DNA of 64,000 nt, from NCBI RefSeq assembly GCF_000027125.1, contig NC_017626.1; one strand, given 5' to 3'. Shown one piece after another: positions 1-50,432 of this stretch. This stretch comes from Escherichia coli 042. Its GTDB lineage: Bacteria > Pseudomonadota > Gammaproteobacteria > Enterobacterales > Enterobacteriaceae. Within the stretch, counting starts at the first letter, position 1, and the number at the start of each line of letters is the position of its first letter. The notes under the pieces were generated by a model, which worked only from the letters and a program-made list of their open reading frames with translations, was not told the origin of the DNA and did no database searches. The position numbers were made by a program, and so were the translations under genes.

Positions 1-775
1 CCGGAATTCATCAATCCACGCTTCGTCAATACGCTGTTCGATGGTTTCTGTTCGCTGCTCGCTTACCTCGCTATAATTCTGTACCGGCACAGGATTGATG
101 ATTTTTTCCTGTGGCTCTTCCAGTTCGTCCGGAGTATACACGCCCAGGATGACGTCAGGACAATAAAGGCGAGCCCAGTATTTCAACGCCAGATAGGCGA
201 GCTGTTGTTTCGGGTTTGAGGTCCATAAAGGAGAATTACGCGTAATCACGCTGGAAAGAAACACCGGTTCTCCCCAGGTAATCTCACTTTCACCGCGAAG
301 AACTGCACCAACTCGAACTGATAGACCATACTCATCTTCACTGGTCCAACATGGGATCGTTTCTTTTTTCTCATAGATTCCGCCTCCTTTGGCCGTTTTC
401 TTAACGGTCTCCACTCGGGTGCGAGAGCATTTCTCCCAGTCTCCCTCGTACTTGTAATGGAAGCGGCCTACAATTGCACTTGAGCTAGAGATCACAGCGT
501 TAACCAGTTGTGCTTCATAACCCAGAACTCCGTTTACCAGGTGTGTTTTCTGAGCCACAGCGTAGGGGTTCATGCCCCATTGCATGGCTTGCATGATGAT
601 TGCCATGCAGTCGGCAGGATTTCCGCGAAGGTGATCGGGAACTGTGACGGTGGCCTGTGACATCAACCTGGCTACTGCCTGAAGTTGCGTCAACGCCTGA
701 ACGTTAAAAATAGTGTTACTGGCAGAAATGGTATTTGGTGTCTGCTCTGTCGTGATGATATTGGTATTTTGCATG
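1..775 (-). CDS. Phage single-strand annealing/recombination protein, N-terminal part only (gene continues past window start)
   Basis: Hand translation of minus strand from ATG at 775 (MQNTNIITTEQ...) stays open to position 1; GGAG RBS; starts 13 nt after recE stop, the position recT occupies in Rac. Sequence does not resemble Rac RecT as I recall it, so family is uncertain. Confidence 0.5.
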
Positions 776-788
776 GTCAGGTTCTCCA

Positions 789-3700
789 TTAAGCCAGATG
801 CAGTGCTTCAAGACGACGAAGATCAAAGTCGTTTAATTCGTCGGTATAACTTTCGGTAATCGGTGCTGGCCAGTTGTTTGTCTCCAGGGCTTCGTTTATC
901 TGGCGTAGCGTCCGGCGATATTCCTGTCGACCAAGTTCCAGGAGTTCCTGCGAGGCTTCCACGACAGCCACCCAGTGATAGCCAGCATCTTTGTTGACGA
1001 AGATCCAGAAAAATTTTTCCAGGTTTGCCACATCGCAATACATTGCGGCGCTGAGGTGATAATCACGCTCAATAATTTCACGGTGCAGGCGATCTTTAAG
1101 TCGTTCCTGCCGCACATAACCGAGGCTGACTGACTTCACGTCGGCGCAAATGCTTTCGTATGGCAGCCGGATTTCGATATCAGGACGGACCCTGATTTCC
1201 AGCCCGGTTTCTTCATCAAACCCGAAATAGCTGATTTCAGATTTGCGATCCGGGTGGTTGAGTAGCCTTGCCGCATCAGTATTGTTTTGCAGTGCCGCGT
1301 GAATATTTTTTGCCTGTTCATACATATCCGGACTGATAAACGTTTTCCCGGCGTTTTCTTCTTGCTGGCGTTTTTGCCAGTCCTCCAGTGTCACCAGTTC
1401 CGGGCGAATTTTCCGTGCGATTTCGGTTAATTGCTCTTTCGTGCCACTGATGTTGTAAGGCAAAGATTTAGCACGTTCTTTTTTTGCCAGTTCTGGGTCT
1501 ACAGTTTCAATTTGATCCAGAAGTTGCTCCCGTGCTCCACTGGTTTTCAACAGAGGAGGGAGGCTTGCGTTGTATTCTTTAATACAGGCTTTCATTGCTG
1601 ATGCTGTGTGTTTTTCCCCCTCAGGGATACGCCGAAATTCCACCGGAAGCGAACCGTAAAGGATGCCTGTTTCTTCGGCCCCAGCACTTACAGACAGTGG
1701 CTGTATAAGAGTGCTGTTGTAGCTTTCGATCCACTCTTTCATCTGCTCTGGTGTCATCAGTGCTGGCAGACTGGCATTGTGTTTTTTAATGATGGCGATC
1801 AGTTCGTTAGAAGTAGTAACCACATATTCAGGAACCGGTACCGGAATGGCATATTCATCAGCGAATTTATCCGTTTCCAGAACATAGCTGTGAATGATCC
1901 TCCCACGCAGCAGTGCATCACTTTCCTCATTCGGAATAGTTCCGGCAATGTGCCGCCCGTGGTAATACATCAGGCTGATACGGGCATCCTTCAGCATCGT
2001 GCTGCTTATTCCGTTGGCGGAGTGATAAACCTCGTTCGGGAGGTTTTCATAGCGGCCTGGCTCGAAATATGACGGCCACATGATTTCAGTTGCTACAGGA
2101 GCTGACGCTTCACCAGTTTGATCACTGCAATCACGATGCGGATCGCTGCCAGCATTCTCATTGTGCGGATGTTCAGCGCCTTCCATTTCCACCGGATCTT
2201 TTTCCTTAGCTTCAACCTGATTCTCTTCATCGAATGTTTCCTGGTATGTTGCGTCGCCCATCACCGCGCCACAGTCAGGGCAGTTACTGCCGCCGGTCTG
2301 ACCGCAGGCGGCGCAGACTTTTTCCGGTTCCTGTTGCGCTTCTGGTTCATTTTGTCGCGAATTTTGGCCGTTTTGTTCCGATTTTCGGTCGTTCTGTTCC
2401 GTTTTTGGCTGATGCTGGTACACAGAATCGCGGGTCTGGATCCCCTTAACCCATTTCGGATCATTCGGGTCGCTAATCCCTTCAACAAATTCTCCGCGAT
2501 AGGCAGCCAGTAATTTGTCTGCATCAACAGAATTTACCTGTGACTGAGCATCCAGCGGCTGCGTGTCCTGATGATGTTCAGTTGCATCCGGTTCCACTGT
2601 TTCAGCCGTTGCCTGTTCATCTGCCATTGCGCCAGATGGTTGCGGTTTTTCTTCATCATTCTGTTTTCCCTCCTCTGTTACACGCTGCGGCATCGGGGCA
2701 GAGGAGCGACCGCAGGCAATATCCACGATTTCCGGATCAGGGTTGGCATGATCGGTTTCAGTCAGTACTTTGTTCAGATATTCTGTGACGTGCGCGGGGA
2801 TGACCTCGATCCCAATTGGTGCTTCTTTCACGGACGCAACCACGATGGCGCGAGAATAATCCAGCCCGCCAGGCATGGTGATGAATTTGTCGCGGAAAAC
2901 AGAAAAGGGCGGTTTATTTTCAGCGATAATTTCCTCAATGCGTTTAGCGTGTGCCGGATGAAGGTTATAGATGTCCACGTCCATTGAACGGGCCAGTACG
3001 CCAGTGGCTACGTCGCGCGCCAGTGACGTAAGATCGTGGACGAAACCTTCGCCGCGATCGGTGAGGTTCCCGCCGCCAGCATTAGCACCGGAAGCCGTGC
3101 GAGTGATGCGTGAAACACGATTACCCTTCATCCACTCTTTTGTCAGCAGTCCTCGATCGGTGTAGTCAGCGTTCAGGTATACTTCGAAAAAAGCAGTTAA
3201 CAGTCCCAAGTCTGAATTACCAGGATTAGGGAAAACTTTGTCAGTGTCACGAACCAGTTTGTGGAGATCGCGAATTTCCAGCGGGTCGAGCAGGCTGGTT
3301 TTGTGGGAAACAGCCAGGGCAGTAACAGCCGGTAGTTCTTCAGCCCGTGCAATGTGTAATGCCTGGAGTTCGCCGCGTGAAACGTGCGTTACCGGTTTTT
3401 CGCTGCCGTGTTGAGCAAGCCAACGAATGGGCAGTTCCTGGCCAGAAATTGGGAGTAGCATATTCTCCTCAATCTCAGTCATGTCTTCGCCGTTGACGTT
3501 GGTATTGCCTTGATAGTGAGCGTTGTCTGGTGCTGCTCCCGGTTTTAGTTCCCATGTCATGGAGTCTTTGCTGAGTTGATAGCGTTCACTCCAGGTAAAA
3601 TCGATCTCACCTTCAGCGGGCAGGTCATTAACGACAGGAAAATTCGTGGCAACAGCTTTAAAATAGCTGCTCAGTTTTTTACCTGACTTAACGATCTGGT

Positions 3701-3812
3701 AGTCCAGAGTGGCACAGGTCGATTCAAAATCGTCACTTGCCCACAGGACGACGTCAGGTTCACCGGATGATTTTTTCGCTTTCCGTAACAGGAAGAGTGG
3801 TTTTGTGCTCAT
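789..3812 (-). CDS. recE: Exonuclease VIII (RecE-like), 1007 aa
   Basis: Long ORF; C-terminal region has RecE-type nuclease-domain character (e.g. [10 protein letters not shown]) as I recall it; synteny with racC/ydaE/kilR. Longer than K-12 RecE (866 aa). Confidence 0.8.
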
Positions 3813-3913
3813 TGTTTTTTAACCTCAACTCAGATTAAAATTCGTTTTGTTCAGTGAATGATCTTGCCGGATACACACTGTTCATAGCCTGCGCCATACG
3901 CAGGCTATTTCTT

Positions 3914-4189
3914 TCAGATTTCACCTTTTAATTTCATTGCAATCAGAGTTGCCAGAAATCCGGCTTTTTTTTCTGCGGGCAGATTCTTTCCGATATGCAC
4001 TAGGCTCATTTTTTTGACACCTTCGTGAAGTGTTTTAACGTTGCCTGATGGACCGTCGATATCAACTACAGTGAATGGGGTTTCTTTATTTTCTGTTTTA
4101 ATCACGTAGCCAATACGCTTTCCTTCCAGATTAACTTCGTGAACAATGTCATCAGTAGTTACAACAGTGGCTTCATAACTGGTAATCAT
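3914..4189 (-). CDS. racC: Rac prophage protein RacC (91 aa from internal Met MITSYEA)
   Basis: ORF translation matches RacC as recalled; position between recE and ydaE. Confidence 0.8.
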   Translation of the reverse strand: MITSYEATVVTTDDIVHEVNLEGKRIGYVIKTENKETPFTVVDIDGPSGNVKTLHEGVKKMSLVHIGKNLPAEKKAGFLATLIAMKLKGEI

Positions 4190-4263
4190 GTTTTTCTTCT
4201 TAATTAAGGTTGAGCGAATCCCTGCCATTGCTGGCATAAATTCAGTTTCGCATAGTCAGTTAA

Positions 4264-4434
4264 TTAAAGTTCGTGTGCCATCTGGTCTTTTTCGGCACAT
4301 ATTTCGCTACAATATTTTTTCATTTCCGTCGTTGGGATAACTCCACGCATGAAATGAAGTGGTCTTTTAATGCTTTTGCTTTCTTTAACTTCTTTATCGC
4401 AAAGGTGGTAAGCACATTTTATTTTCTTAGTCAT
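4264..4434 (-). CDS. ydaE: Small zinc-binding protein YdaE (56 aa)
   Basis: Not in ORF track (<60 aa); hand translation [16 protein letters not shown]...YCSEICAEKDQMAHEL, GGAG RBS, 56 aa as in K-12 ydaE. Confidence 0.75.
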   Translation of the reverse strand: MTKKIKCAYHLCDKEVKESKSIKRPLHFMRGVIPTTEMKKYCSEICAEKDQMAHEL

Positions 4435-4655
4435 CACCATGACTCCGCCTTTACAGGTAAACCATCACGACCGAGGAAGACTTTAATCATGCAGTCAGTA
4501 ATGCATGTTTTTGTGGTCAGGTTACGAATATAAAGCTTTCGCTTTTTAATATTGTTTGCCGAGGCAATATATGTCCGGCCGTTATGAAGAACATAATCAC
4601 CAGGAGTCACACACTGACGAGGTATTTCATCAGTTCCGAAGTGATGAGCAATCAT
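4434..4655 (-). CDS. kilR: Cell-division inhibitor KilR (73 aa)
   Basis: ORF translation [21 protein letters not shown]...; Rac synteny. Confidence 0.8.
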
Positions 4656-11021: not shown

Positions 11022-11201
11022 TTTTATGGAGCACCTTTCTTATTGATTTCATATTGGCGAGGTAGCGGGAGTTAAGTAAAATTGCTGCGGGTGCTTGAGG
11101 CTATCTGCCTCAGGCATGAACACCAAAAGGCAGATAGAGAAAAGCCCCAGTTAACATTACGCGTCCTGCAAGACGCTTAACATTAATCTGAGGCTCAATC
11201 T

Positions 11202-11414
11202 ATGCTGAACACATGTAGGTTAGCCTCTTACGTGCCGAAAGGCAAGGAGAAGCAGGCTATGAAGCAGCAAAAGGCGATGTTAATCGCCCTGATCGTCATC
11301 TGTTTAACCGTCATAGTGACGGCACTGGTAACGAGGAAAGACCTCTGCGAGGTACGAATCCGAACCGGGCAGACGGAGGTCGCTGTCTTCACAGCTTACG
11401 AACCTGAGGAGTAA
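11202..11414 (+). CDS. mok: mok-like overlapping reading frame (translational coupling to hok)
   Basis: 70-aa frame that contains the hok ORF in-frame, as in hok/mok loci. Confidence 0.5.
   Translation: MLNTCRLASYVPKGKEKQAMKQQKAMLIALIVICLTVIVTALVTRKDLCEVRIRTGQTEVAVFTAYEPEE
11259..11414 (+). CDS. hok: Hok/Gef family membrane toxin (51 aa)
   Basis: MKQQKAMLIALIVICLTVIVTALVTRKDLCEVRIRTGQTEVAVFTAYEPEE: Hok-family TM helix plus conserved C..E..R. Confidence 0.85.
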   Translation: MKQQKAMLIALIVICLTVIVTALVTRKDLCEVRIRTGQTEVAVFTAYEPEE

Positions 11415-13665: not shown

Positions 13666-13741
<76 letters not shown>

Positions 13742-13744
13742 TAT

Positions 13745-13819
<75 letters not shown>

Positions 13820-14595: not shown

Positions 14596-14811
14596 ATGAA
14601 ATCCATGGATAAGTTAACAACGGGTGTCGCCTATGGCACCTCCGCAGGCAGTGCTGGCTACTGGTTTTTACAGCTGCTCGATAAAGTCACGCCCTCACAG
14701 TGGGCAGCAATAGGTGTGCTGGGTAGCTTGGTATTTGGCCTGCTGACGTACCTGACAAACCTTTATTTCAAGATTAAAGAAGATAAGCGCAAGGCTGCGA
14801 GAGGTGAATAA
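14596..14811 (+). CDS. Pinholin, phage 21 S21-type, dual-start (MKSM), 71 aa
   Basis: [26 protein letters not shown]...; RBS GAGGTGGGGG; two start Mets three codons apart. Confidence 0.85.
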
Positions 14812-15308
14812 TGCCTCCATCATTACGAAAAGCCGTTGCTGCTGCTATTGGTGGCGGAGCAATTGCTATAGCATCAGTGTTAATCACTGGCCCAAGTGGT
14901 AACGATGGTCTGGAAGGTGTCAGCTACATACCATACAAAGATATTGTTGGTGTATGGACTGTATGTCACGGGCATACAGGAAAAGACATCATGCTCGGTA
15001 AAACGTATACCAAAGCAGAATGCAAAGCCCTCCTGAATAAAGACCTTGCCACGGTCGCCAGACAAATTAACCCGTACATAAAAGTTGATATACCGGAAAC
15101 AACGCGCGGCGCTCTTTACTCGTTCGTTTACAACGTGGGCGCTGGCAATTTCAGAACATCGACGCTTCTTCGCAAAATAAACCAGGGCGATATCAAAGGC
15201 GCATGTGATCAGCTACGTCGCTGGACATATGCTGGCGGTAAGCAATGGAAAGGTCTCATGACTCGTCGTGAGATTGAGCGTGAAATCTGTTTGTGGGGTC
15301 AGCAATGA
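14811..15308 (+). CDS. SAR endolysin (R21-type lysozyme), 165 aa
   Basis: N-terminal Gly/Ala-rich signal-anchor-release segment [18 protein letters not shown]; lysozyme body. Confidence 0.85.
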
Positions 15309-15769
15309 ACAGAGTAACCGCGATTATCTCCGCTCTGGTTATCTGCATCATCGTCTGCCTGTCATGGGCTGTTAATCATTACCGTGATAATGCCATTACC
15401 TACAAAGCGCAACGCGATAATGTGAAGGAAAAACTCAACCAGGCGACCGCAATCATTACTGACATGCAGATACGCCAGCGTGATGTTGCTGCACTCGATG
15501 CAAAATACCTGAAGGAGTTAGCTGATGCGAAAGCTGAAAATGATGCTCTGCGTGATGATGTTGCCGCTGGTCGTCGTCGGTTGCACATCAAAGCAGTCTG
15601 TCCGTCCGTGCGTGAAGCCACCATCGCCTCCAGCGTGGATAATGCAGTCTCCCCCAGACTGGCAGACACCGCTGAACGGGATTATTTCACCCTCCGGGAA
15701 CGACTGGTAATGATGCAGGCCCAACTTGAAGGTGCTCAGCAATACATAACCGAACAGTGTTTAAAGTAA
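15305..15769 (+). CDS. Spanin inner-membrane subunit Rz
   Basis: N-terminal TM, coiled-coil body, follows endolysin. Confidence 0.8.
15525..15710 (+). CDS. Spanin outer-membrane lipoprotein Rz1 (embedded in Rz, +1 frame)
   Basis: Lipobox LVVVGC, Pro-rich mature part, fully nested in Rz. Confidence 0.75.
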
Positions 15770-15906
15770 AATCTTAACTACAATATGATTCATTTTGATG
15801 ATTGTTTCATAAGGAACAGTGAAGTAAGATCTAAGATGAGTTAAATTTTATACAGTATAATCATAATGTTGCAGCAAGGTGGTTATAATTGAAAGAATAT
15901 TTAGAT

Positions 15907-17364
15907 ATGAATACATCTCATGTAAGAGTTGTTACTCATATGTGTGGGTTCCTGGTTTGGCTCTATAGTCTTTCAATGTTGCCACCAATGGTTGTAGCAT
16001 TGTTTTATAAAGAAAAAAGCCTGTTCGTTTTCTTTATAACTTTCGTTATATTTTTTTGCATTGGTGGCGGAGCGTGGTATACAACTAAGAAATCTGGTAT
16101 TCAATTACGTACCCGTGATGGGTTTATTATAATTGTAATGTTTTGGATTTTGTTTTCTGTTATTAGTGCATTCCCTTTATGGATTGACTCAGAACTTAAT
16201 TTAACGTTTATTGATGCTCTATTTGAAGGGGTTTCTGGAATAACAACAACAGGAGCAACTGTAATTGATGATGTTAGTTCATTACCTCGGGCATATTTGT
16301 ACTATCGGTCACAGTTAAATTTTATAGGTGGCTTAGGAGTTATTGTTCTGGCGGTTGCTGTATTGCCATTATTGGGTATTGGTGGTGCAAAGCTTTATCA
16401 GTCAGAAATGCCAGGGCCATTTAAGGATGACAAACTTACTCCCCGCCTGGCCGATACGTCACGGACACTTTGGATAACTTATTCTTTATTAGGTATTGCT
16501 TGTATTGTCTGTTATAGACTTGCAGGAATGCCTTTGTTTGATGCTATTTGTCACGGGATATCCACAGTTTCGCTTGGTGGTTTCTCAACTCATAGCGAGA
16601 GTATCGGATATTTTAATAACTATTTGGTTGAGCTGGTGGCTGGTTCTTTTTCCCTGCTATCGGCTTTCAACTTCACCCTTTGGTATATTGTTATTAGCAG
16701 GAAAACGTTAAAACCTTTAATCAGAGATATTGAACTTCGTTTCTTTCTGTTAATAGCCTTAGGGGTGATCATTGTTACCTCTTTCCAGGTCTGGCATATA
16801 GGTATGTATGACTTGCCTGGAAGTTTTATTCATTCGTTTTTTCTTGCCAGCTCCATGCTCACTGATAATGGTTTAGCTACGCAGGATTACGCAAACTGGC
16901 CCACGCACACGATAGTGTTTTTGCTGTTGTCAAGTTTCTTTGGGGGATGTATAGGTTCAACTTGTGGTGGAATTAAGTCACTTCGATTTCTTATACTTTT
17001 CAAACAAAGCAAACACGAGATAAACCAGCTTTCTCATCCCAGAGCGTTGTTGAGTGTAAATGTAGGAGGGAAGATAGTTACAGATCGTGTAATGAGGTCT
17101 GTATGGAGTTTCTTTTTTCTTTATACTCTCTTCACGGTGTTTTTTATACTGGTGTTAAATGGTATGGGATATGATTTTCTTACATCATTTGCAACAGTGG
17201 CTGCATGTATTAATAATATGGGATTAGGTTTTGGGGCTACTGCATCGTCATTCGGAGTGCTTAATGACATTGCAAAATATTTAATGTGCATAGCTATGAT
17301 TCTTGGTCGCCTTGAAATTTATCCTGTTATTATATTGTTTTCAGGTTTTTTTTGGCGCTCCTAA
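15907..17364 (+). CDS. trkG: Potassium uptake protein TrkG (485 aa)
   Basis: Polytopic membrane protein matching TrkG/TrkH; AT-rich relative to flanks. Confidence 0.85.
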   Translation: MNTSHVRVVTHMCGFLVWLYSLSMLPPMVVALFYKEKSLFVFFITFVIFFCIGGGAWYTTKKSGIQLRTRDGFIIIVMFWILFSVISAFPLWIDSELNLTFIDALFEGVSGITTTGATVIDDVSSLPRAYLYYRSQLNFIGGLGVIVLAVAVLPLLGIGGAKLYQSEMPGPFKDDKLTPRLADTSRTLWITYSLLGIACIVCYRLAGMPLFDAICHGISTVSLGGFSTHSESIGYFNNYLVELVAGSFSLLSAFNFTLWYIVISRKTLKPLIRDIELRFFLLIALGVIIVTSFQVWHIGMYDLPGSFIHSFFLASSMLTDNGLATQDYANWPTHTIVFLLLSSFFGGCIGSTCGGIKSLRFLILFKQSKHEINQLSHPRALLSVNVGGKIVTDRVMRSVWSFFFLYTLFTVFFILVLNGMGYDFLTSFATVAACINNMGLGFGATASSFGVLNDIAKYLMCIAMILGRLEIYPVIILFSGFFWRS

Positions 17365-17501
17365 TATATGGCTGATTTATAATTGTGAGTTTAATATTAT
17401 ATTGACTCACTCATTGATCCAATACCTAACTTTACCAGCAACACCTCCGCCCCCAGTAGCACTGGCTGCTGGGGTGCGTTTTATTCATAAAGCAAGGCTG
17501 T

Positions 17502-18293
17502 ATGAGCGAGAAATTGAAGATCGTCTATCGCCCTTTACAAGAACTGTCTCCGTATGCACACAACGCCAGGACACACAGCCCTGAGCAGGTGGCACAACTG
17601 GTAGAAAGCATTAAGCAATTCGGCTGGACTAATCCGGTGCTGATTGATGAAAAGGGCGAAATTATTGCTGGTCACGGTCGCGTTATGGCGGCTGAAGTGC
17701 TCAAAATGGATTCCATTCCGGTCATCGTTCTGTCTGGTTTGATGGATGATCAGAAAAAGGCGTACCGCCTGGCAGATAATCGCCTGCCGCTGAACGCTGG
17801 CTGGGATGAAGAACTGTTGCGGATGGAGCTGTCGGAGCTAATCAATGCTGATTTTGATATCTCCCTGACAGGATTCAGCCCGACAGAAATTGATGAACTG
17901 TTGACGGATGTTTTGCCAGGTACAGGAAATGAGGAGGAGCCGTACACGACGAAAATTGATACGCCTGTTTATGAGCCGTCGGGCGATAAACCGGACATCA
18001 GTGAGCTGTACGACGATACGAAAACTCAGGAGCTGATCAGCCGGATACGTTCGGCGTCCCTTGAGCCCGATATCGAAAAATTCCTCCTGTGCGCGGCAGA
18101 ACGCCACACGGTGTTTAATTTCAGCAGAATTGCGGACTATTACGCTCACGCCCCCGCTGAAATTCAGTGTTTTTTCGAGGAGTCGGCGCTGGTGATCATT
18201 GATTATCAGCAGGCTATTGAAAATGGATTTGTCCGGATGACGCAGCGCATGGTGGAGATCATGCATGGTGGTGAGGAGGAGGAATATGCGTGA
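17502..18293 (+). CDS. ParB-like nuclease domain protein, 263 aa
   Basis: N-terminal ParB/Srx-like motif (GHGR..A); acidic C-terminus. Confidence 0.65.
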   Translation: MSEKLKIVYRPLQELSPYAHNARTHSPEQVAQLVESIKQFGWTNPVLIDEKGEIIAGHGRVMAAEVLKMDSIPVIVLSGLMDDQKKAYRLADNRLPLNAGWDEELLRMELSELINADFDISLTGFSPTEIDELLTDVLPGTGNEEEPYTTKIDTPVYEPSGDKPDISELYDDTKTQELISRIRSASLEPDIEKFLLCAAERHTVFNFSRIADYYAHAPAEIQCFFEESALVIIDYQQAIENGFVRMTQRMVEIMHGGEEEEYA

Positions 18294-19218
18294 TGATTTT
18301 TGCGCCTTTATTCTGACTCACGGGCGACCGGACAAAGTTCTGACTTACCGGACGTTGCGTCGTGCTGGCTATACCGGGAAAATTTTTATCGTTGTTGATG
18401 ATGAAGATAAGACACGGCATCAGTACATGGCTGAATTTGGTGAACAGGTGCTGGTGTTTTCCAAAGCCGATATCGCCAGTCGTTTTGACGAAGCCGATAA
18501 TTTCGGTGACCGCCGCTCAATTTTTTACGCCCGTAATGCCTGTTTCGACCTGGCAAAACTGGTCGGGTGTAAATACTTCATTCAGCTCGATGATGATTAT
18601 CACGAGTTCCAGTTTCGGGTGGATCGCAACTATGACCAGGCCTATTTTCCGATAAGGAAACTGGATGCGATCCTTTCTGAAATGCTGGCGTACTACGAAT
18701 CAATACCTGCTCTTTCCATCGCTATGTCGCAGGGCGGGGATTTTCTTGGTGACAATGGCGGCCATGCTTCGTGGGTGAAACGCAAGGCAATGAACAGCTT
18801 TATCTGTTCGGTTGATCGACCGTTCTCATTCATGGGGCGCATTAACGAGGATGTGAATACGTACACGAATCTCGGTCGCTGTGGTGAATTGTTTATGACG
18901 ATCGGTGCTGTCCAGTTAGGGCAGAAACAGACGCAGAAAAACAGCGGCGGAATGACCGAGCTGTATCTGGATTCCGGAACCTACGTTAAAAGTTTTTACT
19001 CCGTCATGTATGCGCCGTCGTGCGTAAAAATCTCACTGATGGGTGCCAGCCATAAACGCATTCACCATCAGGTCACCTGGAACAACGCTGCAGTAAAAAT
19101 CCTTCACGAAAAATACAGGAAGAAGACACCCTGCATATCAATAGGGGTGACAAATGATTCCATATTCGAAAGTCGAGTCTCTGGCAGCGTGCCGGATGAC
19201 TGCACAACAAATCGCTGA
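18286..19218 (+). CDS. Hypothetical protein, 310 aa (possible nucleotide-sugar transferase-like fold)
   Basis: Strong RBS GAGGAGGAGG; motifs FILTHGRP, IVVDDED, FIQLDDDY suggest DXD-type transferase but unverified. Confidence 0.5.
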   Translation: MRDDFCAFILTHGRPDKVLTYRTLRRAGYTGKIFIVVDDEDKTRHQYMAEFGEQVLVFSKADIASRFDEADNFGDRRSIFYARNACFDLAKLVGCKYFIQLDDDYHEFQFRVDRNYDQAYFPIRKLDAILSEMLAYYESIPALSIAMSQGGDFLGDNGGHASWVKRKAMNSFICSVDRPFSFMGRINEDVNTYTNLGRCGELFMTIGAVQLGQKQTQKNSGGMTELYLDSGTYVKSFYSVMYAPSCVKISLMGASHKRIHHQVTWNNAAVKILHEKYRKKTPCISIGVTNDSIFESRVSGSVPDDCTTNR

Positions 19219-19408: not shown

Positions 19409-20503
19409 ATGAGCAGACCGGACTGGGGGGCGTTGCAGCAGGAGTATATTGCTGAATACACCCGCTCCGGTATATCTCCGGTGGCATGGTGTGAAGCAAG
19501 GGGACTGAATTACGCAACAGCCCGTCGTTACATCAAAAAACCTCCGAAAAATGCGCAGACAGAAATGCGCAAAACTGCGCAAAAAAGTGCGCAGAAAAAA
19601 TCTGCGCAGACTGCACAAAAGCGGAACGAAAAATCTCAGGAAAAAAAGCCAGTATTCGATGCGGGCCTGAATGAGGGCGACGCGGAGGAATTTTCGTTCT
19701 GTCCCGATGAATTCGGCATTTCTGACCAGCAGGCTAAGTTTGCGATGCTTGTTGCTCAGGGGAAAAAGCCGACAGAGGCGTACCGACTAGCCGGTTATGA
19801 GGGGCAAGGTGCGACAGCTAACAGCAACGCCAGTCGTATGCTTAGAAATGCCAGGGTTTTTCGCGCTATCAGCTACTTCCGCAATCAGTACCAGAAACGC
19901 TATACCGCAGACCTGGATTTACTGGTGAGTCAGTTGATGGCCATTGTCCTGGCCGACCCCAATCAGCTTGCACAATTTCGCCGTGTTAACTGCCGTTATT
20001 GCTGGGGCGAGAATCATCTCTACCAGTGGCGCGATATAGCAGAATTCGACAAGGCAGCGGCGCAGGCTTCCAGAGATGGCAAACCCGAACCGGAATATGG
20101 AGGCCTCGGCTTTGTTGATAACGCCATACCCAATCCGGACTGCCCGAAGTGCTGCGGTGAGGGAACGGGACAGCTTTATATGGCTGATACCACTCTGCTT
20201 GATGGGGATGCGCGGCAATTATATGCAGGGGCAAAACTCGGAAAATTCGGCGTTGAGATCCTGCTGGAGGATAAGGCTGCCGCCCGGCGTGAATTGTTGC
20301 GTTTGCTTTCTGCTGGCGGGGCTTTATGTGCAGATAAGCGGCTACAGGAACTGGAAATTGAACGACGCAGAATGGAAAACCAGAAGCTGCGCAAAGAGAT
20401 CGAAACGGTGGAAGATAATGAACATCCCCAGCCTGTGGCGATCAATATTAATGTGGTTGATGCCAGAGTAAGGAGTGATGAAGATGATCTCTCCGACGCT
20501 TAA
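19409..20503 (+). CDS. Terminase small subunit (P27-type), 364 aa
   Basis: N-terminal HTH, position directly upstream of large terminase. Confidence 0.7.
   Translation: MSRPDWGALQQEYIAEYTRSGISPVAWCEARGLNYATARRYIKKPPKNAQTEMRKTAQKSAQKKSAQTAQKRNEKSQEKKPVFDAGLNEGDAEEFSFCPDEFGISDQQAKFAMLVAQGKKPTEAYRLAGYEGQGATANSNASRMLRNARVFRAISYFRNQYQKRYTADLDLLVSQLMAIVLADPNQLAQFRRVNCRYCWGENHLYQWRDIAEFDKAAAQASRDGKPEPEYGGLGFVDNAIPNPDCPKCCGEGTGQLYMADTTLLDGDARQLYAGAKLGKFGVEILLEDKAAARRELLRLLSAGGALCADKRLQELEIERRRMENQKLRKEIETVEDNEHPQPVAININVVDARVRSDEDDLSDA
19550..19620 (+). repeat. TGCGCA(G/A) direct-repeat array (5-6 copies, 9-15 bp spacing)
   Basis: tgcgca at 19552, 19566, 19576, 19588, 19603, degenerate 19612. Confidence 0.6.
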
Positions 20504-21785
20504 TGTGCCTCAGGCGCGATTTCTTTCAATGCCCCATAAATTTAAAGCCTATATTGCTGGTTTTGGCTCGGGCAAAACATGGGTTGGGTGTGGCGGCATA
20601 TGCAAGGGGATTTGGGAGCATCCAGGTATAAATCAGGGATATTTTGCGCCAACGTATCCCCAAATTCGCGATATTTTTTACCCTACAGTGGAAGAAGTTG
20701 CTGCTGACTGGGGATTGAACGTAAAAATTAATGAGGGAAATAAAGAGGTTCACTTTTATTACGGACGCCAGTATCGGGGAACCACTATCTGCAGATCGAT
20801 GGAGAAGCCACAAACGATCGTCGGTTTCAAAATTGGTAATGCGCTGGTGGATGAACTGGACATTTTGCCGAAGGAAAAAGCCAGAACGGCGTGGCGCAAG
20901 ATAATTGCGCGTATGCGTTATAAGATTGATGGACTTCGCAACGGTATTGACGTTACAACCACGCCGGAAGGATTCAAATTTGTCTACGAGCAGTTTGTTA
21001 AAGCCGTGCGTGAAAAAACAGAGCTGGCCTCACTGTATGGTCTGGTGCAGGCATCTACTTTCGATAATGAAAAGAACCTGCCAGCAGATTACATTCCTTC
21101 GCTTCTTGAATCATACCCACCAGAGCTGATTAAAGCCTATCTTCGAGGACAGTTTACTAACCTGACAAGTGGTACTGTTTACCATCAGTTTGACCGGAAA
21201 CTGAATAATTGCGAAGAAGTGGAGCAGCCAGGGGAGCCGATTTATATTGGGATGGATTTTAACGTTGGAAAGATGGCGGGGATCGTCCATGTGCTGCGTT
21301 TGGGGCTTCCATGTGCGGTAACTGAAATCATCAATGCCTACGATACGCCGGATATGATCCGCATCATTAAAGAACGCTTCTGGCTGTATGACGGGAATGA
21401 TTACCGGAAAGTGAGGGAGATTTATATTTATCCAGATGCTTCCGGAGATTCCAGAAAATCAAGTAACGCAAGTACGACGGATATAGCCCAGCTTAAGCAG
21501 GCTGGTTTTAACGTTGTGGTGAACAGCTCGAACCCGCCAGTAAAAGATCGCGTTAACTCAATGAATGCAATGTTCTGCAATGCCAATGGTGAGCGTCGCT
21601 ATAAAGTTAATGTGAAGCGTTGTCCGGTATATGCCGAATCTCTGGAGCAACAGGTCTGGGATGATAAGGGGGAGCCTGATAAAAAATCTGGCAATGATCA
21701 CCCGAATGATGCCGGAGGTTATTTCATCGTTAAGCAATTCCCTATTGTCAAACCGACCGGAAGAGTCACATCACTTCGGATTTAA
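20475..21785 (+). CDS. Terminase large subunit, 436 aa
   Basis: Walker A GFGSGKT near N-terminus; size and position. Confidence 0.85.
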   Translation: MMKMISPTLNVPQARFLSMPHKFKAYIAGFGSGKTWVGCGGICKGIWEHPGINQGYFAPTYPQIRDIFYPTVEEVAADWGLNVKINEGNKEVHFYYGRQYRGTTICRSMEKPQTIVGFKIGNALVDELDILPKEKARTAWRKIIARMRYKIDGLRNGIDVTTTPEGFKFVYEQFVKAVREKTELASLYGLVQASTFDNEKNLPADYIPSLLESYPPELIKAYLRGQFTNLTSGTVYHQFDRKLNNCEEVEQPGEPIYIGMDFNVGKMAGIVHVLRLGLPCAVTEIINAYDTPDMIRIIKERFWLYDGNDYRKVREIYIYPDASGDSRKSSNASTTDIAQLKQAGFNVVVNSSNPPVKDRVNSMNAMFCNANGERRYKVNVKRCPVYAESLEQQVWDDKGEPDKKSGNDHPNDAGGYFIVKQFPIVKPTGRVTSLRI

Positions 21786-44323: not shown

Positions 44324-45181
44324 CTAATTGGGTGATGACAAATCCTGTGTATGGGTGTTTCCCTTTGTGCGTGCGTTGATGCTGGTAACGGTGAACGTCA
44401 TGATGAACACAACCGCGAATAAGACGACAATCGTCGGAGCTGGTGCACTGTCGATAAAAAAGGACAACCAGACACCAGTCATTGACACTATTACCGATAT
44501 GCCAATCGCCAGTAGGAGCGCAATATGAAAGCGTTGTGTCAGGAGTACCGCAATGGCGCCAGGCGCAATGAGCAGAGAAATGGAGAGAATGATACCTACC
44601 GCTTTCAGCGTCGCCACAATGGTCAGAGAGACCATGCACAGCAGCCCATAATGCAGACATCTCGTATGCAAACCGCTTACCTGCGCCTGTTGATAATCAA
44701 AGCTGAACAGCAAAAAATCCCGCCATTTTACGCTAATAACAAGTGTAACCAACCCGGCAATAATCACCGTCTGGATTATATCGCCGATGGTTACCCCGAG
44801 CATGTCGCCGAAAAGAATATGGTCAAGATGTACGTCTGGTTTGACTGCAATATACAAGATCAGACCTGCGGCAAACATGCCAGAAAAAACAATCCCCATC
44901 ACTGTATCTTGCTTGATTCGGCTGTTGTCTTTCAGGTATCCCGTCGCCACCGCGCAGAATACTCCGGCGACGAATGCCCCTGTAGCCAGAGGTAACCCCA
45001 GAATCCAGGCAAGCACGATGCCAGGAAAAACCGCATGACTCATCGCGTCACCCATCAGTGCCCAACCTTTCAGGACCAGAAAGACCGACAGCAGCGCACA
45101 GGGTATGGAAACTACCAGTGAAATCAGCAGTGCGTGACTCATAAAGGTGAACTGCAGTGGCTCCAGTAATAATGCCATCAT
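44324..45181 (-). CDS. sitD: Mn/Fe ABC transporter permease SitD
   Basis: Polytopic permease; operon order sitABCD. Confidence 0.9.
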   Translation of the reverse strand: MMALLLEPLQFTFMSHALLISLVVSIPCALLSVFLVLKGWALMGDAMSHAVFPGIVLAWILGLPLATGAFVAGVFCAVATGYLKDNSRIKQDTVMGIVFSGMFAAGLILYIAVKPDVHLDHILFGDMLGVTIGDIIQTVIIAGLVTLVISVKWRDFLLFSFDYQQAQVSGLHTRCLHYGLLCMVSLTIVATLKAVGIILSISLLIAPGAIAVLLTQRFHIALLLAIGISVIVSMTGVWLSFFIDSAPAPTIVVLFAVVFIMTFTVTSINARTKGNTHTQDLSSPN

Positions 45182-46035
45182 GAGCGATCCTCCAGCGCTT
45201 TATGCGCACGCCGACGATTTGCCAAAAGCCCATGGGTGGGCGCAAATACAAATGCTAAAAGAAACAGCAGTGTCTGCGCCACCACGATGATTCCACCTGT
45301 CGCGCCGTCCAGAAAGTAACTGACCCACGCGCCGAGGAAACTGGTTACACTGCCAATAGTTACAGCAATTATGAGCAGGCGGGGAAAATGATCGGTTAAC
45401 AACCATGCTGTTGCACCGGGAGTCACCACCAGACAGATCACCAGAAAGGCACCAACCGTTTGCAGCGCCGCAACGGTCGAAACCGACAGCAGGGTGAAGA
45501 AGAGGATTTTTAATCTGCCCGGATGCAATCCAATAGCACGAGCGTGATTCTCGTCGAAAAAGGTCACCATAAGATCTTTCCATTTGAAAAAAAGCACGAT
45601 GATCGAGAGAATGCCAATGATAGTGAGTTGCAGGATATCCGCCGGATCGATTGCCAGAATATTGCCCAGGACGATGGTCTGAATGTTCACGGATGTCGGG
45701 TTCAATGACACCATAAACAGCCCCAGGCCAAAAAAGGAGGAGAAGATCAGGCCGATGATGGCATCTTCTTTTAAGCGAGTGCGTTGGTTAAGAAACAGCA
45801 TGCTGCCCGCTGCCAGTCCGCCGGAAAAGAAGGCTCCCAGAGAAAACGGAAGCCCCAGCATATATGCCCCCGCAACACCCGGGACAATAGAGTGCGACAG
45901 CGCATCGCCAATCAGCGACCAGCCTTTTAGCATCAGATAGCATGACAGGAAAGCGCAGAGACCGCCGACCATCGCCGAGACCCACATCGCATTGAGCATA
46001 TATTCATAGCTGAAGGGTTCCAGTAGCACGTTCAT
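45178..46035 (-). CDS. sitC: Mn/Fe ABC transporter permease SitC
   Basis: Polytopic permease paralogous to SitD. Confidence 0.9.
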
Positions 46036-46859
46036 CTTGCTTCCCCCTGCACCGCTGACGGTCGATGTGCCACAAAAGGGTGTTCATCGTCAGTAATAAT
46101 GCTTTCTTCCGAGCCGTTAAGTGTGACATGGCGCAGTACGCCGCTAAAAGCCAGCTCCAGGTTCTCGGCTGTAAAAGTGGTGTCTGTCGGCCCGCTTGCC
46201 AGGACGGTGCCTTTGACCATGACCGTATAATCGCAAAATGTCGTGACTGAGCCGAGATTGTGCGTTGAGACAAGCATCGTCTTGCCTTCCGCGCGTAACT
46301 CCCTCAACAGGCTGATGATTTTCGCTTCGGTTTTCACATCAACGCCGGTAAAAGGTTCATCCAGCAGGATCACATCACCCTGCTGTGCAATCGCTCTCGC
46401 CAGAAAGACGCGTTTCTTTTGTCCACCGGAAAGCTCGCCGATTTGTCGATGGCGAAAATCCACCATATCGACACGTTCCAGCGCATCGGTGACAATCTGA
46501 CGATCCCTCTTTTTGGCTATACGCAACATACCCATGTGCCCATAGCGGCCCATCATCACCACATCTTCCACTAGTACAGGAAATGACCAGTCAACCTCTT
46601 CTGACTGAGGGACGTAGGCAACCAGGTTTTTCTGTAGCGCCTGTCGCGTGGGAATACCCAGAACAGATATCTTTCCGCTGGTCAGACGGACAAATCCCAT
46701 AATCGCTTTAAACAACGTCGATTTTCCGGAACCGTTTACCCCAACCAGAGCGGCAATAGATCCACTTGGTACTGTGAAGGATGCATCGCGCAGTGCTGTG
46801 TGCCCGTTACGCCAGGTGACAGTAACATCATTAACGACAATGCCCGCAGATTGCATCAT
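46032..46859 (-). CDS. sitB: Mn/Fe ABC transporter ATP-binding protein SitB
   Basis: Walker [13 protein letters not shown] signature LSGGQKKR, Walker B ILLDEP. Confidence 0.9.
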
Positions 46860-47773
46860 TATTTCTCCCTTTTCCCGGCTTTAATTCCCTGTACCAGCGT
46901 ACTGGTAGTAACCTTCAGAAGGTCGATATACGTAGGTACCGGGCCGTTTTCTGTGCTCAGGGAATCGACATAGAGTACACCGCCGTAGTGCGCGCCGGTT
47001 TCACGCGCAACCTGACGCGCTGGTTTATCGGAAATCGTACTCTCGCTAAAGACTGCCGGGATATGATTTTTCTTCACCATATCAACAACCTTACGTACCT
47101 GCTGCGGCGTGCCTTGTTGATCGGCATTAATCGGCCACAGATAAAGCTCTTTTAGCCCCAAATCGCGTGCGAGATAAGAAAAAGCCCCTTCACTGGTGAC
47201 CATCCATCGCTGATTCTCAGGGAGTTCAGCAATCTGCTTACGCAGGGGGGCAAGGGTTTGGGTAATCTTGGCTTTATAAGTATCGGCATTACGTTGGTAG
47301 GTTTGTGCATTTGCCGGATCGTATTTTATCAACGCATCACGAATATTATCGACATAAATCAGAGCATTATCTGGCGACATCCAGGCATGGGGGTTAGGTT
47401 TGCCCTCATAGGGTCCTTCGGTGATCCCTACTGGCGTCACACCCGAAGAGACAATTACTTCTGGAACCCCATTGAGATGTTGGTAAAAGCGTTGGAACCA
47501 CAATTCCAGATTCATACCATTGGCGAGAATCAGTTGTGCCCCCTGCGCACGTTTAATATCTCCAGGGGTAGGCTGATACTCATGAATTTCTGCACCAGGC
47601 TTGGTTATGGATGAGACTTCTGCAGCATCTCCAGCCACGTTTTTGGCCATATCCGCGATGATGGTAAATGTTGTAATGACCTTGAATTTTTCAGTTGCAC
47701 TTGCCTGAAATGCGATCGAGCAGGTGAGGGCGAGGCACCCCAAGAGCATGGTTACTTTTTTTATTGAGTGCAT
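46859..47773 (-). CDS. sitA: Periplasmic metal-binding protein SitA
   Basis: Signal peptide; cluster-9 substrate-binding protein family. Confidence 0.9.
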
Positions 47774-50067: not shown

Positions 50068-50294
50068 TGAATAAATCCTTTAGTTATTTTATTTGCCTTT
50101 TATCCCCATTTCGGGGAGTGAAAACATCCTAAAGGAGATGTTCAGTTAGCCGATAAATATCATTTGTTACGCCTTAAGTAAAACCTTAATCAAATAATTC
50201 TTCTGAAATGATAATAAGTCTGGTGAATGTATTGGAGATAATACATACAAAATAAAAATTATACTTTTAATTTGCTATACGTTATTCTGCGCGG

Positions 50295-50403
50295 GTTATA
50301 TGCCTTTATTGTCACAGATTTTATTTTCTGTTGGGCCATTGCATTGCCACTGATTTTCCAACATATAAAAAGACAAGCCCGAACAGTCGTTCGGGCTTTT
50401 TTT
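50295..50403 (+). ncRNA. micC: MicC small regulatory RNA
   Basis: Sequence GTTATATGCCTTTATTGTCACAG... ending in gcccgaac...gttcgggc + T-run; between ompN and ydbK. Confidence 0.85.
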
Positions 50404-50432
50404 TAGAATTGGATAATTCTTATCCAGAGCAT

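What the first reader, a model, noticed from the sequence alone, without database searches (positions are those of the whole stretch)
15907..17364. trkG potassium transporter as AT-rich cargo between lysis and packaging genes
trkG is markedly more AT-rich than the flanking phage genes and is preceded by an AT-rich leader, consistent with horizontally acquired cargo expressed from the prophage.
Basis: partly seen in the sequence, partly recalled or inferred. Interest (0 to 1): 0.25.

Follow-up and report, generated by a model that had tools for sequence, protein, structure and literature searches.

The report
Known trkG cargo gene in Rac prophage

Summary
The ORF at 15907-17364 (+) is a full-length TrkH-family transporter, and RefSeq calls the identical gene trkG. 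It has 37.9% GC and 32.1% GC3, the lowest of 35 genes measured in the window. Its 137-nt leader has 25.5% GC. The 1,664-nt block 15770-17433 is the most AT-rich stretch of that length in the 64 kb (36.4%; the next lowest that does not overlap it is 40.1%). It lies between holin/endolysin/Rz and ParB-TAGT-terminase.

Three results support the cargo reading:
- A related prophage with the same ParB-TAGT-terminase backbone carries LT-II enterotoxin genes in this slot.
- The block is 97-100% identical in 45 prophage loci, whose flanks are 91-96% identical or replaced.
- Homologues elsewhere are not in phages, and the Enterobacter one has host-like GC.

Published work already covers the low GC, the Rac location, a constitutive promoter, partial H-NS repression and Na+-dependent K+ uptake. 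The finding is therefore already known and of low interest.

One small new point: the true start is probably TTG 15889, giving 491 aa. That start has a strong Shine-Dalgarno site and is conserved in homologues, including one where the annotated ATG is CTG.

The parts
14596..14811 (+). Holin (essD-like), first gene of the lysis cassette upstream of the cargo
   Evidence: Pfam Phage_holin_2_1, E 4.9e-35. Annotated essD in APEC O1.
14811..15308 (+). Endolysin (rrrD-like lysozyme)
   Evidence: Pfam Phage_lysozyme, E 1.3e-45. RefSeq annotation.
15305..15769 (+). Rz i-spanin, with a 61-aa ORF nested in another frame at 15525-15710 (position of Rz1); last backbone gene before the cargo
   Evidence: Pfam Phage_lysis, E 2.6e-49. 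Homology to other prophages' Rz runs to about the stop codon and is then lost. The nested ORF is listed; Rz1/RzoD lipoproteins are annotated under this stretch in other genomes.
15770..15906 (+). AT-rich leader of trkG (GC 0.255), left end of the cargo block; holds two perfect TATAAT hexamers (15856-15861 and 15884-15889)
   Evidence: Sequence. GC rank 0.17%. 97-100% identical in all 45 IMG/VR loci. The promoter scan is not above chance. Promoter activity is known only from K-12 literature.
15876..15891 (+). Shine-Dalgarno AAGGTGG (15876-15882), 6 nt, then TTG (15889-15891): probable true start codon, giving 491 aa
   Evidence: Anti-SD duplex -8.2 kcal/mol, against -0.9 for ATG 15907. The same pattern is seen in the E. 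fergusonii and Citrobacter homologues, and in Citrobacter the 'ATG' is CTG. 491-aa homologues start at this alignment column. ON470595.1 annotates the 491-aa form.
15907..17364 (+). trkG coding sequence as annotated in RefSeq (485 aa); TrkH-family K+ transporter membrane subunit
   Evidence: GC 0.379, GC3 0.321. D327 (485-aa numbering; D333 in the 491-aa form) and the pore-loop glycines are present.
17365..17433 (+). 3' tail of the cargo block (AT-rich; small hairpin GTGAGT...ACTCAC)
   Evidence: Travels with trkG in the IMG/VR loci whose DNA reaches it, at 97-100% identity. No homology to the Ceylon31 backbone. Fold.
17448..17478 (+). Strong GC-rich hairpin followed by a short T-run, just upstream of ParB; terminator-like, and part of the backbone
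   Evidence: -25.2 kcal/mol, z -3.8. Hit in the terminator scan. Conserved with Ceylon31, where the upstream cargo is different.
17502..18293 (+). ParB/Srx N-terminal domain protein (full-length ynaK), first backbone gene after the cargo
   Evidence: Pfam ParB_N, E 2.3e-06. RefSeq annotation.
18286..19218 (+). TAGT-family (TET-associated glycosyltransferase-like) protein
   Evidence: Pfam PF20691, E 6.5e-35. No NCBIfam match.
19409..21785 (+). Terminase small (19409-20503) and large (20484-21785) subunits: the packaging genes
   Evidence: Pfam Terminase_2, Terminase_6N and Terminase_6C.

Best explanation
The block 15770-17433 is a passenger-gene ('moron') cassette in the late region of a full-length Rac-type lambdoid prophage. 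It carries trkG, the phage-borne paralogue of the host K+ transporter gene trkH.

Shown here: it is an intact TrkH-family gene; it is the most AT-rich stretch of the window; it sits in a slot that a related prophage uses for LT-II toxin genes; and it is a discrete unit, more conserved than its mosaic flanks.

From published K-12 work on a 97.6%-identical copy: it is transcribed in the lysogen from its own constitutive sigma-70 promoter; H-NS/StpA lower that transcription but do not silence it; and the product works with host TrkA as a Na+-dependent, lower-activity K+ uptake system that also lets in Na+ and can back up TrkH.

Inferred: the gene came from a lower-GC donor that has not been identified. 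Because it lies on the same strand downstream of the Q-like antiterminator, with no predicted terminator between Rz and trkG, it should also be read through from the late transcript on induction.
For: Identity.

Composition.

Slot used by other cargo: Ceylon31 has LT-II A/B between the lysis genes and the same ParB-TAGT-terminase module. PMC3252337 independently places LT-IIc operons between a phage lysozyme gene and a parB-like gene.

Discrete cassette: leader, gene and 69-nt tail are 97-100% identical in 45 IMG/VR loci. In those loci the lysis flank is 91-96% identical or only 40% covered, and the ParB flank is 93-96% identical or replaced. In complete E. coli genomes trkG is 98.6-99.9% identical, while the adjacent ParB segment is about 93% identical.

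Non-phage relatives: E. fergusonii (79% aa) sits in a chromosomal islet, Enterobacter cloacae (70%) in a core context with GC 0.567 equal to its flanks, and Serratia (66%) in a P4-like island.

Function and expression: PMC9898762 and PMC5811629. The TrkG-specific D327 and the pore glycines are conserved. The ORF is intact in 1,538 of 5,426 complete genomes.
Against: - No strictly empty site (Rz directly abutting ParB) was found; only a site with different cargo.
- The consensus promoter scan of the region is not above chance (6 found, 6.8 expected), so the promoter rests on K-12 literature.
- The only convincing terminator-like hairpin belongs to the backbone and not to the cassette.
- No donor was identified. 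The nearest non-E. coli full-length protein is only 79% identical.
- Expression, H-NS binding and transport were not and could not be tested for this strain.
Confidence: 0.93

Rival explanations
1. The low GC is only a side effect of encoding a very hydrophobic membrane protein (codons rich in T for Phe, Ile and Leu), not a sign of foreign origin.
For: The coding strand is strongly T-rich (AT skew -0.17 to -0.28 across the gene). GC at codon position 2 (0.397) is within the range of the neighbouring genes (0.35-0.47).
Against: Synonymous third positions are the most deviant: GC3 is 0.321, against 0.41-0.57 in the flanking genes (p = 9e-13). The Enterobacter member of the same clade (70% aa identity) has GC 0.567 and GC3 0.72. 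Host trkH is reported at 53% GC (PMC9898762). The non-coding leader is also extreme.
Confidence: 0.03
2. trkG is an ancestral, integral gene of Rac-type phages, not acquired cargo.
For: In complete E. coli genomes the counts of trkG (1,550) and of the adjacent ParB segment (1,574) are nearly equal. Every phage record with this ParB-terS segment also has trkG.
Against: The same backbone carries LT-II instead in Ceylon31. The cassette is more conserved than both flanks and is joined to different lysis and downstream modules. Its composition is an outlier. Relatives in other genera are chromosomal or on other elements.
Confidence: 0.04
3. trkG serves the phage during lytic growth: it is expressed from the late operon to restore K+ or tune membrane potential and so lysis timing, and is not (only) a lysogen-benefit gene.
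For: It has the same orientation as the late genes and lies directly after Rz. No terminator-like site is predicted between Rz and trkG. trkG-carrying Rac-type genomes are deposited as phage records.
Against: There is no direct evidence. The published data show constitutive expression in the lysogen and a host-level K+ phenotype. K-12 keeps trkG in a defective prophage that cannot grow lytically, which argues for host-level selection.
Confidence: 0.08

Closest known systems
trkG of the cryptic Rac prophage of E. coli K-12 (Schloesser et al. 1991; Tanudjaja et al. 2023, PMC9898762)
   Same: It is the same gene: 98.8% DNA identity over the CDS, and one 97.6%-identical piece covering Rz 3' end, leader, trkG and ynaK 5' end. 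It has the same low GC (38%) and the same left neighbour.
   Different: Here the prophage is full length. ParB (ynaK) is complete and is followed by TAGT, terminase, head and tail genes. In K-12 the match stops inside ynaK (window 17755) and joins ydaY. This is the undeleted arrangement.
TrkH (host core K+ transporter; Vibrio parahaemolyticus TrkH structures 3pjz, 4j9u)
   Same: Same family and the same length of alignment (E 6e-121, residues 13-491). The pore-loop glycines are conserved. According to the literature it uses the same TrkA partner.
   Different: TrkG has Asp at position 327, where Vibrio TrkH has Gly. That Asp is invariant in the TrkG clade, and PMC9898762 links it to Na+ dependence. 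The gene is phage-borne, AT-rich and H-NS-repressed, whereas trkH is core, 53% GC and not H-NS-regulated.
LT-II enterotoxin operons in lambdoid/Rac-like prophages (Jobling & Holmes 2012, PMC3252337)
   Same: They use the same slot, after the lysis genes and before a parB-like gene and terminase. DNA homology with this window starts at about 17434.
   Different: The cargo is a toxin operon plus several small ORFs, and the lysis cassette in Ceylon31 is of a different type (GH108 endolysin).
Morons of lambdoid phages (Hendrix/Juhala concept; lambda bor and lom, stx next to the lysis genes)
   Same: It is an extra gene of deviant composition inserted between late-region backbone genes and expressed in the lysogen. 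A Lom/Ail-like gene is present in this same prophage (39266-39865).
   Different: A cassette-owned terminator was not demonstrated, and no empty site was found.

Membership tests
TrkH/TrkG family (Pfam PF02386; Trk/Ktr/HKT superfamily) | Full-length match to the TrkH profile and to solved TrkH | tested here: met
   PF02386 E 1.8e-143, profile positions 3-500 of 502. 3pjz/4j9u E 6e-121 over residues 13-491.
TrkH/TrkG family (Pfam PF02386; Trk/Ktr/HKT superfamily) | Conserved glycine in each of the four pore loops. Loop assignment is from my knowledge of the Vibrio TrkH structure, Cao et al. 2011. | tested here: met
   TTTG, LGGF, DNG and NNMG align with TTTG, IGGF, TAG and NNLG of Vibrio TrkH. 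All are invariant among nine TrkG-clade proteins.
TrkG clade (as opposed to TrkH) | Asp327, five residues after the third pore-loop glycine (PMC9898762) | tested here: met
   GLATQD in the window protein. This is invariant column D333 of the 491-aa numbering. Vibrio TrkH has Gly there.
TrkG clade (as opposed to TrkH) | TrkA-dependent, Na+-stimulated K+ uptake | not testable with these tools
   Known only from K-12 experiments.
Phage moron / cargo cassette | Lies between genes that are backbone neighbours in related phages (empty or alternative site exists) | tested here: inconclusive
   An alternative-cargo site was found (LT-II in Ceylon31; PMC3252337). No strictly empty Rz-ParB junction was found.
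Phage moron / cargo cassette | Nucleotide composition different from the surrounding phage genes | tested here: met
   Lowest GC, GC3 and host-referenced codon adaptation of 35 genes. Most AT-rich 1.66-kb stretch of the window.
Phage moron / cargo cassette | Own promoter and terminator | tested here: inconclusive
   There are two perfect TATAAT hexamers in the leader, but the promoter scan is not above chance. The promoter is shown only in K-12 by SELEX and a luciferase reporter. The strong hairpin 17448-17478 is backbone sequence.
Phage moron / cargo cassette | Expressed in the lysogen | not testable with these tools
   Literature for K-12: transcript level similar to trkH.
H-NS xenogeneic-silencing target | AT-rich relative to the host genome | tested here: met
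   GC 0.364 for the block, against 0.483 for the window and a mean gene GC of 0.49 for nine host genes.
H-NS xenogeneic-silencing target | H-NS binding and derepression in an hns mutant | not testable with these tools
   Reported for K-12 by qRT-PCR, in agreement with earlier ChIP-chip data.

The most novel reading that the evidence does not exclude
Besides its known role in the lysogen, trkG is read through from the Q-antiterminated late transcript. It then acts for the phage during lytic growth, by restoring K+ or shifting membrane potential and so holin-triggered lysis timing. That would explain why this cassette is kept more conserved than its flanks, directly after the lysis genes, in inducible Rac-type phages.
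Probability: 0.08. Interest if true: 0.45.

Novelty: already known. Interest (0 to 1): 0.1.

Why it matters
It matters little as a discovery. trkG in Rac is a textbook case of a horizontally acquired, AT-rich, H-NS-damped gene that the host has adopted. The window has some value because it shows the undeleted arrangement (lysis, trkG, ParB-TAGT-terminase) that K-12 has lost. It also shows that the slot is a cargo site shared with LT-II toxin genes. Finally, it suggests a six-codon correction of the annotated start.

Tried and rejected
- I first assumed the whole window was APEC O1 and mapped its annotation by one offset. This failed (recE would not translate). BLAST showed the window is a mosaic relative, 99.7% identical only over 11881-37898, and no exact source is in the complete-genome set. 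I then used piecewise offsets and kept only ORFs that were intact.
- I looked for a strictly empty Rz-ParB junction and found none. I found only the LT-II-bearing site.
- I looked for a donor. There is a gap between 99% (E. coli) and 79% (E. fergusonii) full-length identity among 5.8 billion proteins. The IMG/VR scan with TrkG-clade patterns returned only this same lineage, at 96% identity or more. The donor remains unknown.
- The consensus promoter scan gave nothing above chance.
- Schloesser 1991 (PMC207911) and Jobling 2016 (PMC4957749) are not held in the library, so they are cited only through papers that cite them.
- The literature search for trkG described as a moron gave nothing specific.
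- The 'membrane-protein composition' explanation was rejected on GC3 and on the high-GC Enterobacter homologue.

Full report
**What is there.** The ORF list gives one long ORF, 15889-17364 (+), of 491 aa from a TTG. The product matches Pfam TrkH over its whole length (E 1.8e-143). It also matches the solved Vibrio TrkH structures 3pjz/4j9u (E 6e-121, residues 13-491). The four pore-loop glycines are present. So is Asp327, which PMC9898762 links to the Na+ dependence of TrkG; it is invariant in nine TrkG-clade proteins, while Vibrio TrkH has Gly there. The window as a whole is not APEC O1. It is a mosaic relative, 99.7% identical over 11881-37898 and more divergent or different elsewhere, and no exact source is in the complete-genome collection.

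**Context.** The prophage is a full-length Rac-type lambdoid. In APEC O1 it sits next to ttcA and carries intR, xisR, recET, kilR and sieB. Upstream of trkG are a Q-like DUF1133 gene, two tRNAs, the holin, the endolysin and Rz. Downstream are a ParB-N protein (full-length ynaK), a TAGT-family glycosyltransferase, terS, terL, the portal gene and the head and tail genes. All of these are on the + strand. 'Between lysis and packaging genes' is therefore correct. K-12 keeps the same left side, but its match stops inside ynaK and joins ydaY, which is the known Rac deletion.

**Composition.**
- trkG has GC 0.379, with 0.420/0.397/0.321 by codon position. The 5-kb flanks have 0.465 and 0.485, and neighbouring genes have GC3 of 0.41-0.57.
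- Among 35 intact genes (25 phage, 9 host, trkG), trkG is lowest for GC, GC3 and host-referenced codon adaptation. Its share of eight rare codons is 9.3%, against a mean of 5.6% in phage genes and 2.7% in host genes.
- The leader 15770-15906 has GC 0.255, in the lowest 0.17% of 137-nt windows.
- The block 15770-17433 (GC 0.364) is essentially the minimum of all windows of its length. The lowest non-overlapping window is 0.401.
- Chi-square against the flanks gives p = 9e-12 for all positions and p = 9e-13 for third positions.
- Hydrophobic-protein bias contributes, since the coding strand is T-rich. It cannot explain GC3, and the Enterobacter homologue has GC 0.567 and GC3 0.72.

**Cargo or backbone.**
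- Left boundary: homology to other prophages' Rz runs to about the Rz stop codon and is then lost.
- Right boundary: E. coli Ceylon31 has the same ParB-TAGT-terminase module, with DNA homology starting at about window 17434. Between its lysis genes and ParB it carries LT-II enterotoxin A and B genes plus small ORFs. Jobling and Holmes independently placed LT-IIc operons between a phage lysozyme gene and a parB-like gene (PMC3252337).
- In 45 IMG/VR prophage loci, the leader, the gene and the 69-nt tail are 97-100% identical wherever the locus extends that far. The lysis flank is 91-96% identical or only 40% covered. The ParB flank is 93-96% identical or replaced after about 80 nt.
- In 5,426 complete E. 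coli genomes, trkG is present in 1,550 at 98.6-99.9% identity in the listed rows. The adjacent ParB segment is present in 1,574, mostly at about 93%.
- The cassette is therefore a discrete unit, better conserved than the mosaic backbone around it.
- No strictly empty site was found.

**Relatives.**
- The nearest full-length proteins outside E. coli are 79% identical (E. fergusonii) and 78% identical (Citrobacter). Pectobacterium, Pantoea, Erwinia, Enterobacter, Buttiauxella, Serratia and Xenorhabdus follow at 76-61%.
- Their contexts are not phage. E. fergusonii has the gene in a chromosomal islet beside porin genes. In Enterobacter cloacae it lies in a core neighbourhood (radical-SAM, Cu-oxidase, acyltransferase, DNA topoisomerase IV and two-component-system genes), with GC equal to its flanks. 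In Serratia it is in a P4-like island, with GC 0.451 against 0.56 on the left.
- DNA homology with the E. fergusonii copy spans window 15884-17368 only. It therefore shares the coding region but not the leader.
- The donor of the E. coli copy remains unidentified.

**Expression and mechanism.** These could not be tested here, so I rely on K-12 work on a copy that is 97.6% identical across the leader and the gene. Genomic SELEX found a constitutive sigma-70 promoter for trkG in Rac, and the authors concluded that the gene entered with its promoter (PMC5811629). The trkG transcript is present in wild type, rises in hns and hns stpA mutants, and does not respond to NaCl. TrkG needs Na+ for K+ uptake, also takes up Na+, has lower activity than TrkH and can substitute for it (PMC9898762). 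In the sequence, the leader has two perfect TATAAT hexamers, but the consensus promoter scan is not above chance. No terminator-like site lies between Rz and trkG, so read-through from the late operon on induction is a reasonable inference. The strong hairpin at 17448-17478 (-25.2 kcal/mol, z -3.8) is conserved with Ceylon31 and so belongs to the backbone.

**A small new point: the start codon.** The TTG at 15889 is preceded by AAGGTGG at a 6-nt spacing.

| Genome | Upstream TTG: anti-SD duplex (kcal/mol) | Annotated start: anti-SD duplex (kcal/mol) |
|---|---|---|
| Window | -8.2 (TTG 15889) | -0.9 (ATG 15907) |
| E. fergusonii | -10.7 | -2.4 (ATG) |
| Citrobacter | -8.8 | +0.4 (CTG, not ATG) |

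The 491-aa homologues begin at this same alignment column, and phage record ON470595.1 annotates the 491-aa form. A stop codon lies directly before the TTG. TrkG is therefore probably 491 aa.

**Verdict.** Interest is low. The most novel reading that is still open is a role for trkG in lytic growth through late-operon expression. I rate that unlikely.

Noticed in passing
window 15876-15891: The annotated ATG start of trkG (15907) has almost no Shine-Dalgarno site (-0.9 kcal/mol). An in-frame TTG six codons upstream has AAGGTGG at 6 nt (-8.2 kcal/mol). The TTG and its SD are conserved in the E. fergusonii and Citrobacter homologues, and in Citrobacter the ATG is CTG. RefSeq (485 aa) and phage record ON470595.1 (491 aa) disagree on the start.
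   Followed up: yes
window 17502-19218: A ParB/Srx N-terminal-domain protein is followed, with overlapping reading frames, by a TAGT-family (TET-associated glycosyltransferase, PF20691; RefSeq elsewhere calls it 'GREB1-related') protein. The pair lies directly upstream of the terminase genes. I did not notice a TET/JBP gene nearby. Its function in the phage is unknown; it may be a DNA-modification or packaging accessory.
   Followed up: partly
L002 (E. coli Ceylon31) 636-4598: A related prophage with the same ParB-TAGT-terminase backbone carries toxin genes in the Q-to-ParB region. A scabin-related ADP-ribosyltransferase and a subtilase-type AB5 binding subunit lie before the lysis genes. LT-II A/B lie after them, in the slot that trkG occupies here.
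   Followed up: partly
window 17448-17478: There is a strong hairpin (-25.2 kcal/mol, z -3.8) with a short T-run 24 nt before the ParB start. It is kept both where the upstream cargo differs (Ceylon31) and where the downstream ParB gene is replaced (e.g. L015). It therefore marks a recurrent recombination boundary or a backbone terminator.
   Followed up: partly
window 15770-17433 versus its flanks, in loci L014-L058 and in complete E. coli genomes: The trkG cassette is markedly better conserved (about 98.6-99.4%) than the phage DNA on either side (91-96%). It is joined to at least two kinds of lysis cassette and two kinds of downstream region. 15 of 1,561 trkG places are on records labelled plasmid.
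   Followed up: partly
window 44324-47773 (-) and 39266-39865 (+): At the tail-fibre end of the prophage there is a four-gene Mn/Fe ABC transporter (sitABCD-like; the ATPase matches NF011630, E 7e-178) and a Lom/Ail-like outer-membrane protein gene. At the corresponding end APEC O1 instead carries cdtABC type IV, an alpha/beta hydrolase and an omptin, plus a frameshifted metal-transporter permease.
   Followed up: partly
window 11089-11264, 13666-13816 and 50292-50412: Rfam finds a sok antitoxin RNA, with a Hok/Gef gene annotated next to it in APEC O1. It also finds two tRNA genes (Thr and Gly in the APEC O1 annotation) between the Q-like gene and the holin, and MicC next to host ompN. By homology to APEC O1, the early region also holds a QueH (epoxyqueuosine reductase) gene and a Doc-family toxin.
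   Followed up: no
window 19409-20503: RefSeq marks the corresponding APEC O1 small-terminase gene as a pseudogene ('internal stop'). In the window, the same coordinates are an uninterrupted 364-aa ORF with a Terminase_2 match.
   Followed up: no
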